Position numbers and translations under genes: made by a program. A stretch of 18,112 bases of DNA from a virus, in UHGV virus genome UHGV-0337628. One strand, given 5' to 3'. Under the pieces are notes generated by a model. That model made no database searches. It had not been told where the DNA came from and saw only the letters and a program-made list of their open reading frames with translations. Positions 4,677-15,719 of this stretch are shown piece by piece (within the stretch, counting starts at the first letter, position 1; the number at the start of each line of letters is the position of its first letter).

Positions 4677-5138
4677 TCACGTACTCGGATCATCTTTCTC
4701 GATGTAAAACCGATTCCACGTAAACGCGCTTTTGTTACCACTACCGCGAGGCATGTCATTTCGCCGCTCAAGTGGTGGTATTTTGGTTAAAGCGATGCAG
4801 ATTGTCTGATATGCGCTGTCAGCAGCGGTAAGGAGAGCATCTGACGGCTGAATGACGTTATCCATGCACACTTGCACAGCGAGTTTCAAAGCGACGCCAT
4901 CATTTGCCCATGCAGGGATACCTGAATCATCGTCAGGTAACGGCATGATGCCGTTTTCTGTATCAGCAAACAGATACCCAAGCTCGATACCTTTCGCCTG
5001 CCATGCTGCCATCATGTCTTCAAGGTCATTAATGGCATCTTCAATTGCCTGAGGGTCGGCATCTGTCAACGTGGCATTGGAATACAGCCCGGCTTTTCGT
5101 AAAGCCTTTAGAACGAGATCACCCTTCGTTTTCGCCAT
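4677..5138 (-). CDS. head completion / tail accessory protein, P22 gp4-like
   Basis: 153-aa ORF directly upstream of the gp10-like gene; size and order consistent with P22 gp4 / Sf6 gp7. Confidence 0.7.
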   Translation of the reverse strand: MAKTKGDLVLKALRKAGLYSNATLTDADPQAIEDAINDLEDMMAAWQAKGIELGYLFADTENGIMPLPDDDSGIPAWANDGVALKLAVQVCMDNVIQPSDALLTAADSAYQTICIALTKIPPLERRNDMPRGSGNKSAFTWNRFYIEKDDPST

Positions 5139-5307
5139 CTTCTTCCGCCTTAGCCACTTTTTGCTTCGTTGCGGTTTCTTCAGGAGTTTTTACCCAACCT
5201 TTTTTCAGGTGAGATTTAACTTCTTCGTCATCAACAATGATGTAATCGACAGCAAACTGACCACAGGTGATCATGTTGCCAGGCTTATAGAGCATTGTTC
5301 GTGCCAT
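5119..5307 (-). CDS. small hypothetical protein (62 aa) between coat and gp4-like genes (Sf6 gp6 position)
   Basis: ATG at 5307 preceded by GGGAGAAG Shine-Dalgarno immediately after a terminator hairpin; product MARTMLYKPGNMITCGQFAVDYIIVDDEEVKSHLKKGWVKTPEE... The track reports the longer 5119..5346 version, whose start leaves no room for a ribosome-binding site after the coat stop. Confidence 0.5.
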   Translation of the reverse strand: MARTMLYKPGNMITCGQFAVDYIIVDDEEVKSHLKKGWVKTPEETATKQKVAKAEEDGENEG

Positions 5308-5318
5308 TGTCTTCTCCC

Positions 5319-5341
5319 AATAAAAATGGGGCCGAAGCCCC
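5319..5341 (-). terminator. intrinsic terminator-like hairpin after the coat gene (GGGGC-UUCG-GCCCC followed by a U-tract)
   Basis: On the minus strand GGGGCTTCGGCCCC then ATTTTTATTG, starting 8 nt after the coat stop codon; 5-bp G/C stem with a UUCG tetraloop. Confidence 0.5.
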
Positions 5342-5348
5342 ACCAAAA

Positions 5349-6602
5349 TTACTGCCCGGCAATAACGATGCCCGTATATTCAGGAACAAGTACAGAGCAA
5401 CCGTACAGAGTGGTGAAACGAGCAGTGGTTACGCCTTTGATGTGGTCGAAGGCGTAAGACATGATCAGCGTAGCGCCCTGCTCGGTGGTTGCTGTCATTA
5501 CCTGTGGACCCTGACCAGTCGGGAACGCTAGTTTGCCGTACATCAGCTCAACAGAACCATCAGCCCAGAACAGGTTAGCAGGTGCTGCGTTCTTGTTGAG
5601 AATGGTGATTGCTGCTGATTCTGCCGGTTTGGCATCGACGTTTGCATATGGACGACTCGCAACATCGGTATTTTCAACAGGGAGAATCTTTGGAGAGATT
5701 GTTACGGTAGTTCCGCTAACAGCCAGAACACGGAATACCTGCGGTTGCCCGGTGGTATCTTTTGTGATCTGGTGTACGGAATTCACACCGGCAATGGTGA
5801 ACGCATCACCAACCTGCAAGCCAGATGCAGATACCGTAATAGTCCCCTGTCGGTTATCAACTGGCATACCATTTGAATCTTTCGCTTCAACCTTGTGTTC
5901 AGGTTGGCCTGATACTGTCAAGGATTCAGCGCTTCCTTTCGGTAATCGACCAGAAATATCGGTCTTGTAGCTATCAAAGGAAGCAACCGGAGGGATCTGC
6001 GCTTTTTCGTATGCTGTCAGGGTTGCGCCCTGAGCGTAGGCACGGTGACCAAGCTCGCCAGCAAGGTCTTTGTAGTTGAAGGGGTTCCAGAAAGAGCGAC
6101 GGTTGATACCCTGCGGTACACCAATCGCCGTCATGGTGGCATCAATACCTGCCGCACAGTTCCACAAATCACGGCCCTGTGTACCTGTGGTTGAGTCAGA
6201 CATTGTGATCACGTTAGTAGCACGCTGCGTAACCATGGAAATCAGGTCAGAGTCAATCTGTGCAGCAAGGCGCATACCTGCGGCGCGACCAGCTTCAGTT
6301 TTATGCTCAGGGTCACGCATTTCACGCGCATCCAGAGTGTACAGAATGTTTTTCGGCTCCTTGAACACAGAAGGAACAAGGCGCTGAACCAGTGCTGTAG
6401 GCGTTTTGCTGCTGAGATCGAGGCCTTCCTCAATGTTCATGTGGTAATGCTGCGGACGATACAGAACATCACCTGCTCGCTGCATTGCTGTATCACCGGG
6501 ACGGAATTTTTTAGCATTACGGGAAACTACGCAGGCGGCCTCAAAGCCTTCAACGTAGTTTTCGAACATGATTTCAAGGTCTTTTGCTAATTGGTTAGCC
6601 AT
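5349..6602 (-). CDS. major capsid (coat) protein, P22 gp5-like
   Basis: 417-aa ORF following the scaffold gene; GGAG Shine-Dalgarno upstream of the ATG at 6602; size and position as for P22/Sf6 coat (~420-430 aa); followed by a terminator hairpin, as is common for coat genes. Confidence 0.8.
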   Translation of the reverse strand: MANQLAKDLEIMFENYVEGFEAACVVSRNAKKFRPGDTAMQRAGDVLYRPQHYHMNIEEGLDLSSKTPTALVQRLVPSVFKEPKNILYTLDAREMRDPEHKTEAGRAAGMRLAAQIDSDLISMVTQRATNVITMSDSTTGTQGRDLWNCAAGIDATMTAIGVPQGINRRSFWNPFNYKDLAGELGHRAYAQGATLTAYEKAQIPPVASFDSYKTDISGRLPKGSAESLTVSGQPEHKVEAKDSNGMPVDNRQGTITVSASGLQVGDAFTIAGVNSVHQITKDTTGQPQVFRVLAVSGTTVTISPKILPVENTDVASRPYANVDAKPAESAAITILNKNAAPANLFWADGSVELMYGKLAFPTGQGPQVMTATTEQGATLIMSYAFDHIKGVTTARFTTLYGCSVLVPEYTGIVIAGQ

Positions 6603-7514: not shown

Positions 7515-7604
7515 TTGTTACCCCTGTTTACTCGATGTTCAGCCCATCGGAAGGCAATAGGGTGCCAGGCCTCATAAAGACAGCCATTGCACGTTATGGG
7601 TTAA

Positions 7605-12250: not shown

Positions 12251-12282
12251 AAAAGGCAGCATGTTGAGTGCTGCCATATTCA
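12251..12282. terminator. candidate bidirectional intrinsic terminator between convergent genes
   Basis: Perfect 7-bp stem GGCAGCA / TGCTGCC (12255-12261 and 12269-12275) with a 7-nt loop; flanked by AAAA on the plus side (giving UUUUAU on the minus transcript) and a T-rich stretch downstream on plus. Confidence 0.45.
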
Positions 12283-13152: not shown

Positions 13153-13181
13153 TGCAATAAAAAGCCCCGCGAATGCGAGGC
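13153..13181 (-). terminator. intrinsic terminator-like hairpin downstream of Rz, immediately upstream of the 95-aa ORF
   Basis: Minus strand GCCUCGC-AUUC-GCGGGGC (7-bp G/C-rich stem, one G-U pair, 4-nt loop) followed by UUUUUAUUG. Confidence 0.55.
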
Positions 13182-13356
13182 TAAATCCTGGTATTTGTAA
13201 TGATCTGGCTCTTATCTCAACGCAACCCCTTACTGCGCGCCAGATGCTCAATATCAAGCATCAGCAATGAGATGTTTAATCTGGATTCACTCCAGAAGCG
13301 ATCACCACCCTGTCTACAGAGCCAGATGTGAAGGATGATGAGTAAAATTATCGCTA

Positions 13357-15186: not shown

Positions 15187-15223
15187 CCCTCTAATTATGG
15201 CTAAATGGCTAATTGCATGTCAA
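15187..15223 (-). promoter_or_regulatory. candidate sigma-70 late promoter (pR-prime analogue) overlapping the Q stop codon
   Basis: Minus strand TTGACA (15223..15218), 18-bp spacer, CATAAT (15199..15194). The -35 hexamer lies inside the last Q codons and the -10 directly after the TAG stop. Predicted start ~15187, only a few nt before the terminator hairpin. Confidence 0.4.
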
Positions 15224-15719
15224 GGCTTTTAACAGCAACATGCTTAACTTTCTCAACACGTTTACGCATTTTGAAAGCATTTTGCATTGGTTGGTACAAA
15301 ACAAATAATGACGCTTTCAGGATATCGTCAATTTCGTTTCTACAGGTTGCCAGTGAAGGTTTTCTCCATCCCTCGCCACCACGCCCACACATCTTGCGTG
15401 GCTTTGCAGTCGCGTGATAGTAGGATGCAATTGCTCGCTTAGATGAACCATGAGCGTAGTAGCTGAGGAGGATGCCAAAGGCTTTCTTGTCAATGTACAT
15501 GACGGAATCGACGACCTGAGAAATCAACATTCCATCATCATCATTACACATTGGCCTTGTCATAACTCTTCCCGGCTCTACGCTCTCCATGAACTTCGCT
15601 ATTACGCTGCTCATGCGCTTTTCCAGGCGACCTGAATAAACCCATGCGCCCCACAGTTCAAGCCAGCCATTCAGCCACTCGTGCTGTTCTTTGGTGAGGT
15701 TTAGTTCTCTTATGCTCAT
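15201..15719 (-). CDS. late-gene antiterminator Q, P22 gene 23 type
   Basis: 172 aa; motifs WLELWGAWV and RPMCNDDDGMLI resemble the LERWGAW and RPQCCDDDAMI motifs I recall from P22 gp23-type Q proteins; immediately upstream of the late promoter/terminator and lysis genes; start overlaps the NinH stop. Confidence 0.7.
   Translation of the reverse strand: MSIRELNLTKEQHEWLNGWLELWGAWVYSGRLEKRMSSVIAKFMESVEPGRVMTRPMCNDDDGMLISQVVDSVMYIDKKAFGILLSYYAHGSSKRAIASYYHATAKPRKMCGRGGEGWRKPSLATCRNEIDDILKASLFVLYQPMQNAFKMRKRVEKVKHVAVKSLDMQLAI

What the first reader, a model, noticed from the sequence alone, without database searches (positions are those of the whole stretch)
5119..5345. UUCG-tetraloop terminator after the coat gene, then a 62-aa ORF overlapping the gp4-like start
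A GGGGC-UUCG-GCCCC hairpin plus U-tract lies 8 nt after the coat stop, which would boost coat-to-downstream mRNA stoichiometry. The small ORF immediately after it has its own Shine-Dalgarno and overlaps the gp4-like gene by ~20 nt. Its function is unknown, and the track's longer version of this ORF (start at 5346) is probably wrong.
Basis: seen in the sequence. Interest (0 to 1): 0.35.

Follow-up and report, generated by a model that had tools for sequence, protein, structure and literature searches.

The report
Known post-coat terminator hairpin and orf69-family gene
This is the standard junction of P22-like phages: a small terminator-type RNA hairpin right after the coat gene, then a conserved but non-essential 62-residue gene of unknown role that overlaps the start of the head-completion gene gp4. 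It is real but already annotated in P22, Sf6 and L.

Summary
On the minus strand the coat gene ends at TAA 5351-5349. A GGGGC-UUCG-GCCCC hairpin (core 5341-5328, extended 5344-5325, dG -13.6) and a U-rich tail follow. Then come a GGGAG Shine-Dalgarno, the ATG at 5307 and a 62-aa ORF that overlaps gp4 by exactly 20 nt.

The window is a CUS-3/Sf101/Kapi1-type P22-like prophage, found in about 8% of complete E. coli genomes. The same element is annotated as 't coat' terminator in Sf6, 'RNA stem-loop' in P22 and 'terminator' in L. Published work says its role is untested.

The hairpin and U-tract are conserved across more than 15 enterobacterial genera, and distant relatives show compensatory stem changes. 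The identical hairpin preferentially follows major head and tail genes in unrelated phages.

The ORF belongs to the P22 orf69 / epsilon34 gene 6 family (phrog_1175). It is under purifying selection, always sits next to gp4, and is reported non-essential in P22. Sf6 gp6 is only a positional analogue. The 75-aa TTG form is an artefact.

Verdict: real, ordinary, already known.

The parts
5349..6602 (-). Major coat protein gene (417 aa, P22_CoatProtein family, CUS-3 type); stop TAA at 5351-5349
   Evidence: PF11651 7e-77; phrog_283 1e-121
5325..5344 (-). Post-coat hairpin ('t coat' equivalent): GGUGGGGC-UUCG-GCCCCAUU; core GGGGC/GCCCC at 5341-5328 with a cUUCGg tetraloop
   Evidence: dG -13.6, z -2.7. 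Conserved in 110/116 related loci. Compensatory changes in distant relatives.
5319..5327 (-). U-rich tract AUUUUUAUU directly 3' of the stem; predicted transcript 3' end near 5322-5319
   Evidence: Across 40 distinct junction contexts the 9-nt tail holds a mean of 6.7 T against 2.0 expected.
5314..5318 (-). Shine-Dalgarno GGGAG, 6 nt before the ATG of the small ORF
   Evidence: A GGAG/GAGG is present before the ATG in essentially all relatives.
5119..5307 (-). 62-aa ORF, P22 orf69 / epsilon34 gene 6 family (phrog_1175). Beta-hairpin plus helix N-terminal module (residues 1-40) and a short tail. Function unknown.
   Evidence: 9e-29; dN/dS 0.03-0.3; pLDDT 77
5344..5346 (-). TTG that starts the spurious 75-aa extended ORF call; it lies in the 5' flank of the hairpin
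   Evidence: It is TAG in about 13 near-identical loci, and the frame relation is not conserved.
5145..5151 (-). gp4 Shine-Dalgarno AAGGCGG, embedded in the 3' end of the small ORF (codons K-A), 6 nt before the gp4 ATG
   Evidence: the same AAGGCGG-type SD is seen inside the upstream ORF in nearly all relatives
4677..5138 (-). gp4-like head-completion / head-to-tail adaptor gene (153 aa); overlaps the small ORF by 20 nt
   Evidence: PF11650 1.6e-40; phrog_637
15201..15719 (-). Context: late antiterminator Q gene. A sigma-70-like promoter (TTGACA-18-CATAAT) at 15223..15194 overlaps its 3' end. The hairpin lies about 9.9 kb downstream in the same operon.
   Evidence: PF06530 1e-25

Best explanation
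The stretch is the procapsid-module / head-completion-module junction of a CUS-3-type P22-like prophage.

(1) The hairpin and its U-tract form a compact intrinsic-terminator-type element. It is the same element annotated as 't coat' in Sf6. It marks the 3' boundary of the very abundant scaffold-coat mRNA segment. Non-antiterminated or partly modified polymerases stop there. On read-through transcripts made by Q-modified polymerase, the same hairpin can act as a 3'-exonuclease barrier after cleavage in the AU-rich tail. Either way, coat and scaffold mRNA exceed the mRNA for the 12-copy head-completion proteins. The anatomy and conservation are shown. The mechanism is inferred.

(2) The 62-aa ORF starting at ATG 5307 is a real gene of the P22 orf69 / epsilon34 gene 6 family. 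Its N-terminal module of about 40 residues (beta-hairpin plus helix) is under purifying selection. Its codons carry the gp4 ribosome-binding site and it overlaps the gp4 start. It therefore most likely delivers ribosomes to gp4 by translational coupling and also encodes a non-essential accessory protein tied to gp4. The coupling and the gp4 link are inferred from arrangement only.
For: Identity.
- 97-99.6% DNA identity to EC.P3, E212, CUS-3, Sf101 and Kapi1.
- The same feature is annotated in Sf6 ('terminator ... t coat'), P22-pbi ('RNA stem-loop') and L ('terminator').

Hairpin.
- One copy per locus at this junction in 110/116 loci.
- 40 distinct contexts with unrelated upstream flanks keep the stem and a U-rich tail (6.7 versus 2.0 T per 9 nt).
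- Loops are mostly UUCG, with one GAAA.
- Distant P22-type head modules have different stems with 100% pairing and double changes in 4 of 5 pairs.
- It is directional: the antisense strand has no U-tract.
- In arbitrary viral contigs, about 30 of the 72 ORFs ending just upstream of the identical hairpin match major-head families and about 15 match major-tail families.

Expression.
- Kapi1 RNA-seq reports scaffold and capsid among the highest phage transcripts (PMC12922286).
- The phage L paper proposes partial termination or stopping of non-antiterminated transcription.

ORF.
- phrog_1175 at 9e-29.
- 97 clusters in an exhaustive profile search.
- dN/dS 0.03-0.3 with dS near saturation.
- SD plus ATG conserved.
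- 5 of 5 distant members lie directly upstream of a PF11650 gp4 gene, even where other genes separate them from the coat gene.
- The gp4 SD lies inside the ORF in nearly all loci.
Against:
- The operon is driven by a Q antiterminator. Q-modified RNA polymerase is known to read through intrinsic terminators, so actual termination may be small.
- The stem is short (5 G-C pairs plus 3 weaker pairs).
- The distant hairpins used for the covariation count were chosen by eye.
- Higher scaffold/capsid RNA than portal RNA in Kapi1 cannot be explained by a downstream terminator alone.
- The gp4 start region is not significantly structured (z = 0.07), so coupling is not enforced by unmasking.
- The ORF gave no fold or family match with known function.
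- The P22 homologue is reported non-essential (Eppler 1991, cited in PMC2629481).
Confidence: 0.72

Rival explanations
1. The hairpin does not terminate transcription at all in the infected cell. Q-modified polymerase reads through it completely, and it acts only after transcription. It would be a 3'-exonuclease barrier that stabilises the upstream scaffold-coat mRNA after RNase E cleavage in the AU-rich tail.
For: - Q gene present upstream.
- Extra-stable tetraloops (UUCG, once GAAA) are selected.
- Kapi1 scaffold and capsid RNA exceed the upstream portal/terminase RNA as well, which needs differential stability or internal starts.
- P22 scaffolding gene expression is known to be modulated post-transcriptionally (Casjens and Adams 1985; Wyckoff and Casjens 1985; from my own knowledge).
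Against: A pure stability hairpin does not need a U-tract, yet the U-tract is conserved almost everywhere. The two roles are not exclusive.
Confidence: 0.3
2. The element's main role is in the lysogen. It stops spurious transcripts, or transcripts from internal promoters, that lack Q modification. This keeps downstream head-completion, ejection and tail genes silent.
For: - Proposed in the phage L genome paper.
- dRNA-seq of the P22-like prophage BTP1 reported four start sites on the coding strand inside the capsid gene cluster (PMC7067206).
- Other terminator-like hairpins lie inside the same late operon at 13182..13163 and 12275..12255.
Against: This does not explain why the identical hairpin so strongly prefers the 3' end of major head and tail genes in unrelated, including lytic-type, phage contigs. 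No sigma-70-like site was found in the portal-scaffold gap.
Confidence: 0.15
3. The near-invariant 14-nt GGGGC-N4-GCCCC is kept mainly as a boundary sequence. It would be a short shared homology that lets procapsid modules and head-completion modules be exchanged between phages.
For: - The stem sequence is identical across coat families that are very divergent.
- WIN versus L080 shows a breakpoint at the hairpin: coat 50-80% identical, everything from the first 100 nt downstream 98-99% identical.
- P22 versus L share the coat and hairpin but differ directly after it.
- Morons are inserted right after it in L088, L090 and L110.
Against: - 14 nt is very short for homologous recombination.
- Breakpoints also occur elsewhere, for example about 100 nt downstream in WIN versus L031.
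- Distant relatives keep the structure but not the sequence, which argues for RNA-level selection.
- The same hairpin occurs after head and tail genes of unrelated phages.
Confidence: 0.1
4. The small ORF is only a translated leader for gp4 (a coupling device), and its peptide has no function of its own.
For: - A non-homologous ORF (Sf6 gp6 type, phrog_3251) occupies the same position with the same kind of overlap.
- The P22 homologue is reported non-essential.
- The gp4 SD is embedded in the ORF.
Against: - There is strong purifying selection on the N-terminal 42 codons, far from the overlap (dN/dS 0.03-0.3).
- The family is recognisable in 97 clusters at 50% identity.
- The predicted fold is confident, with pLDDT 85-90 in the core.
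Confidence: 0.12

Closest known systems
[quoted passage not shown]
   Same: Same position (4-7 nt after the coat stop). Same GGGGC-N4-GCCCC stem, U-rich tail and SD, followed by a small ORF that overlaps gp4.
   Different: The loop differs (UUCG here and in L; UGCG in P22; UUAC in Sf6). The coat gene upstream is the CUS-3 type. None of these elements has been tested experimentally, according to the L paper.
P22 orf69 / epsilon34 gene 6 / phage L Orf186 (phrog_1175, phrog_3769)
   Same: Homologous N-terminal module (M..MLYKPG...G...VD..E..L..GW..P.E). Same position and same overlap with gp4. Role unknown, and the P22 gene is reported non-essential.
   Different: The window's protein has a minimal tail. 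It lacks the (EP)n acidic linker and the basic K/R-P-G, AT-hook-like motif of many members. It also lacks the WDGH-domain insert (PF25311) of L, epsilon34 and L112.
Sf6 gene 6 / HK620 hkbT (phrog_3251)
   Same: A small ORF in the identical slot, with its own SD, a basic tail and a 26-nt overlap with the gp4 homologue.
   Different: Not demonstrably homologous: a different PHROG, and hhalign probability 28% over 24 columns.
T7 T-phi and the terminators mapped directly after major capsid genes in T7-like and other phages
   Same: A terminator-type hairpin immediately after the major capsid gene, read through in part so that downstream virion genes are expressed at a lower level. [quoted passage not shown] Inefficient terminators balance expression in T7.
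   Different: Those act on phage RNA polymerases or unmodified host polymerase. Here the host polymerase is expected to carry a Q antiterminator.

Membership tests
Intrinsic (Rho-independent) terminator | G+C-rich stem-loop with a short loop | tested here: met
   8-pair stem (5 G-C), 4-nt loop, dG -13.6 kcal/mol, z -2.7
Intrinsic (Rho-independent) terminator | U-rich tract directly 3' of the stem, on the transcribed strand only | tested here: met
   AUUUUUAUU follows the stem. It is conserved at 6.7 of 9 T across 40 contexts. The antisense side reads ACCAAAAUU.
Intrinsic (Rho-independent) terminator | Generates transcript 3' ends in vivo or in vitro | not testable with these tools
The literature says the role is not known.
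P22-like post-coat stem-loop ('t coat') | Lies within a few nt of the coat stop and is followed by an SD and a small ORF that overlaps gp4 | tested here: met
P22-like post-coat stem-loop ('t coat') | Structure conserved with compensatory changes among relatives | tested here: met
   100% of cells paired and 4 of 5 pairs with double changes. Caveat: the distant hairpins were picked by eye.
cUUCGg extra-stable tetraloop | UUCG loop closed by a C-G pair | tested here: met
   The sequence is C(UUCG)G. The closing C-G is invariant in 15 of 15 variants. The thermodynamic bonus itself was not measured.
P22 orf69 / epsilon34 gene 6 family (phrog_1175) | Profile match over the N-terminal module | tested here: met
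   phrog_1175 at 9.2e-29 over residues 2-56. P22 orf69 matches the same PHROG at 4.5e-31.
P22 orf69 / epsilon34 gene 6 family (phrog_1175) | Located immediately upstream of, or overlapping, the gp4 (PF11650) gene | tested here: met
   20-nt overlap here. The same arrangement is seen in about 30 prophage loci and in 5 of 5 distant members.
Sf6 gene 6 family (phrog_3251) | Sequence or profile similarity to Sf6 gp6 | tested here: not met
   No phrog_3251 hit for the window ORF. hhalign probability is 27.9%.
AT-hook-bearing proteins | R-G-R-P core flanked by basic residues | tested here: not met
   The window's tail is ETATKQKVAKAEEDGENEG, with no GRP core. Relatives such as P0062 (PRRGRPPKV) and P0075 (KRGRPPVE) do have one.

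The most novel reading that the evidence does not exclude
The orf69-family protein is a dedicated partner of the gp4 adaptor. The conserved N-terminal beta-hairpin/helix module would bind gp4 or the portal. In most relatives, the acidic spacer plus AT-hook-like basic tail would contact the last-packaged DNA end, helping to hold DNA in the head until gp4 closes the portal. The window's tail-less version would keep only the gp4-binding half.
Probability: 0.15. Interest if true: 0.5.

Novelty: already known. Interest (0 to 1): 0.18.

Why it matters
It matters little for discovery. The element and the ORF are annotated in the model phages P22, Sf6 and L, and the published view is 'putative terminator, role not known; small gene, role unknown, non-essential'.

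It has some practical value:
- It settles the correct start of a gene that is mis-called in some records, for example Kapi1_051.
- It shows that the hairpin is one of the most conserved non-coding features of P22-like head modules and a generic mark of highly expressed virion genes.
- It shows that the small gene's constant partner is gp4 rather than the coat gene.

That last point gives a concrete handle for anyone who wants to find the function of orf69.

Tried and rejected
The Kapi1 paper holds no supplementary tables as text.
- Pfam gives nothing for the ORF.
- A PDB sequence search with the family profile finds nothing real.
- Foldseek against the PDB has best E > 1. Foldseek against BFVD finds only uncharacterised family members.
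- Rfam finds nothing at the junction.
- Homology to Sf6 gp6 is rejected as unproven.
- The 75-aa TTG form is rejected.
- A structural mask over the gp4 start is rejected (z = 0.07).
- The 71-nt fold of the whole junction was not better than shuffles (z = -0.57). Only the isolated hairpin stands out.
- tblastn of the ORF against phage records reached only 11 near-identical records, and the word-indexed protein search reached only close relatives. The exhaustive profile search was needed.
- In one search the Xenorhabdus (L088/L090) comparisons with the window used the wrong ORF and should be ignored.

Full report
**What is there**

All genes in this part of the window run on the minus strand.
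- The 417-aa ORF at 6602..5349 is a P22-type coat protein (PF11651, 7e-77; phrog_283). It ends with TAA at 5351-5349.
- Seven nucleotides later comes GGGGC-UUCG-GCCCC (5341-5328). It can extend to an 8-pair stem at 5344-5325. It is followed by AUUUUUAUU (5327-5319).
- Next are GGGAG (5318-5314), six nucleotides, and ATG 5307.
- The ORF from that ATG is 62 aa and ends at 5119. The gp4-like gene (PF11650, 1.6e-40; phrog_637) starts at ATG 5138, so the overlap is exactly 20 nt.
- The isolated hairpin folds at -13.6 kcal/mol (z = -2.7). A 71-nt fold of the whole junction is not exceptional.

**What the window is**

The stretch is 97-99.6% identical to phages EC.P3, E212, JEP4, CUS-3, Sf101, Kapi1 and others of the genus Lederbergvirus. 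The 301-bp junction occurs in 428 of 5,426 complete E. coli genomes, among them E. coli HS.

A Q antiterminator gene (PF06530) lies at 15719..15201. A strong sigma-70-like site at 15223..15194 overlaps its 3' end. The hairpin therefore sits about 9.9 kb inside a Q-dependent late operon.

**Already annotated**

- The Sf6 record marks 'stem-loop that is likely to be a transcription terminator; t coat' directly after its coat gene, followed by gene 6, which overlaps the gp4 homologue.
- The P22-pbi record marks an 'RNA stem-loop' followed by orf69.
- The phage L record marks a 'terminator' followed by Orf186.
- The four junctions read TAA-(6-7 nt)-GGGGC-loop-GCCCC-U-rich-SD-ATG.
[quoted passage not shown] It offers partial termination, or stopping of transcription that lacks antitermination, as possibilities.
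[quoted passage not shown] 1991.

**Conservation of the hairpin**

- In 116 loci fetched through gp4 homologues, GGGGCNNNNGCCCC occurs exactly once per ~5.4-kb locus in 110 of them. It is always on the coding strand at this junction. Four more loci carry GGGAGC/GCUCCC or GGGGGC/GCUCCC.
- The prophages come from Escherichia, Shigella, Salmonella phages, Xenorhabdus, Erwinia, Proteus, Yokenella, Pseudescherichia, Yersinia, Buttiauxella, Citrobacter, Tatumella, Pantoea, Kluyvera, Rahnella and Providencia.
- In 40 distinct sequence contexts the upstream flank is unrelated, but the 9 nt after the stem hold 6.7 T on average against 2.0 expected. The loop is UUCG in 31 contexts and GAAA in one, another extra-stable class.
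- More distant P22-type head modules were reached through remote members of the small-ORF family. They carry GGAGCC-GAAA-GGCUCC, GCCCCC-UUCG-GGGGGC and GUCCUC-UUCG-GAGGGC with U-rich tails.
- On 15 distinct hairpins every cell pairs. Four of five pairs show changes on both sides, and the loop-closing C-G is invariant. I selected the distant hairpins by eye, which favours this result.

**A generic mark of abundant virion genes**

- In 73 of the 80 loci listed, an ORF of at least 80 aa ends within 100 nt upstream.
- I scanned 72 of these against PHROGs. About 30 match major-head-protein families (phrog_371: 15; phrog_283: 9; phrog_138: 3; phrog_264: 2; phrog_212: 1).
- About 15 match major tail or tube proteins (phrog_3575: 10, and others).
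- Family counts may overlap slightly. A phage has one such gene among 50-100, so this is a strong enrichment.

It fits the textbook case of T7 T-phi and the mapped terminator after the LUZ100 capsid gene. It also fits the general use of leaky terminators to balance expression.

**Mechanism**

The anatomy is that of an intrinsic terminator, and it is directional: the antisense strand has no U-tract. Q-modified polymerase is known to resist such terminators, so the share of real termination is uncertain.

The Kapi1 transcriptome paper reports scaffold and capsid among the highest phage RNAs. A downstream terminator alone does not explain why they exceed the upstream portal and terminase RNA. A 3' stabilising role, or internal starts as reported for BTP1, probably contributes.

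I therefore favour a combined reading: a leaky terminator that also serves as a 3' protective hairpin. The pure-stability, lysogen-insulator and recombination-boundary readings are rivals.

The boundary idea has some support. WIN versus L080 switches from 50-80% identity in the coat gene to 98-99% identity from the first 100 nt after the hairpin. But structure rather than sequence is kept at depth.

**The small ORF**

*Start codon.* The 62-aa form is right, for these reasons.
- The TTG at 5346 lies in the hairpin flank with no SD.
- The stem-to-ATG distance varies from 30 to 38 nt and falls in all three frames among relatives.
- The TTG is TAG in about 13 near-identical loci.
- The 'GLRP' extension is simply the translated hairpin.
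- CUS-3, Sf101 and PGAP nt, while Kapi1_051 carries the long form.

*A real gene.*
- It matches phrog_1175 at 9e-29.
- An exhaustive profile search finds 97 clusters at 50% identity.
- dN/dS over the first 42 codons is 0.03-0.3 with dS near saturation.

*Architecture.* The family consists of an N-terminal module of about 43 aa, a variable acidic (EP)n or (EQ)n spacer, and a basic tail. The tail is often AT-hook-like and its codons hold the gp4 SD. The window's protein has only a short tail.

*Structure.* AlphaFold gives a beta-hairpin (residues 3-26) plus a helix (27-35), with pLDDT 85-90 in the core. Nothing in the PDB matches.

*Genomic partner.* Five of five distant members lie directly upstream of a PF11650 gene, even when other genes separate them from the coat gene. 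The constant partner is therefore gp4.

*Relation to Sf6 gp6.* Sf6 gp6 is a positional analogue only.

*gp4 start region.* It is not structured, so any coupling comes from the overlap itself.

**Verdict**

The feature is ordinary and already known, and its function remains experimentally untested.

Noticed in passing
L088:2062-2328 and L090 (Xenorhabdus prophages): An 89-aa Tad2-like (PF11195, 8e-25) anti-Thoeris-type gene is inserted exactly between the post-coat hairpin and the orf69-family gene. The slot after the hairpin is used for cargo. L110 (Kluyvera) carries a different 78-aa insert there.
   Followed up: partly
L005:948-1505 (phage L Orf186) and L112:1885-2502 (Pantoea): Long members of the family carry a WDGH domain (PF25311, 2e-40) inserted between the N-terminal module and the basic tail. 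P22 orf69 and the window's ORF are the short forms.
   Followed up: partly
P0062, P0075, P0067, L095, L116 and other family members: Many members have an acidic (EP)n/(EQ)n spacer followed by an AT-hook-like core (RGRPPK, KRGRKPKA, KKPGPKPKA). The window's protein lacks both.
   Followed up: partly
L089 (Symbiopectobacterium purcellii), about 1431-2392: An IS-type transposase gene is inserted into the orf69-family ORF, leaving only its C-terminal 42 codons in front of gp4. The post-coat hairpin is displaced to 363-376.
   Followed up: no
L080 versus window (junction at the hairpin): There is a mosaic breakpoint. The coat gene is 50-80% identical, and everything from the first 100 nt after the hairpin is 98-99% identical. 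L031 has its breakpoint about 100 nt further on, inside the small ORF.
   Followed up: partly
window 13182..13163 (-) and 12275..12255 (-): Two more terminator-like hairpins with U-tracts lie inside the same late operon, between the lysis genes and the small-terminase region.
   Followed up: no
L117:2962-3189 (Kapi1_051, MT813197): The GenBank record of Kapi1 annotates the 75-aa TTG-start form, which begins in the hairpin. This is very probably a mis-called start.
   Followed up: yes
L122:4194-6377: In one metagenomic P22-type module the gp4 homologue is a 727-aa protein (PF11650 plus a large extension). It is followed by a Laminin_G_3 protein.
   Followed up: no
window 7515-7604 (-): There is a 90-nt non-coding gap between the portal and scaffold genes, with no consensus promoter or terminator hit. 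It could hold a processing site or weak start that contributes to the high scaffold/coat RNA reported for Kapi1.
   Followed up: no
L102 (Symbiopectobacterium MAG): This is the only diverse locus with an intact coat to small-ORF junction but no hairpin. The gap is only 24 nt.
   Followed up: no
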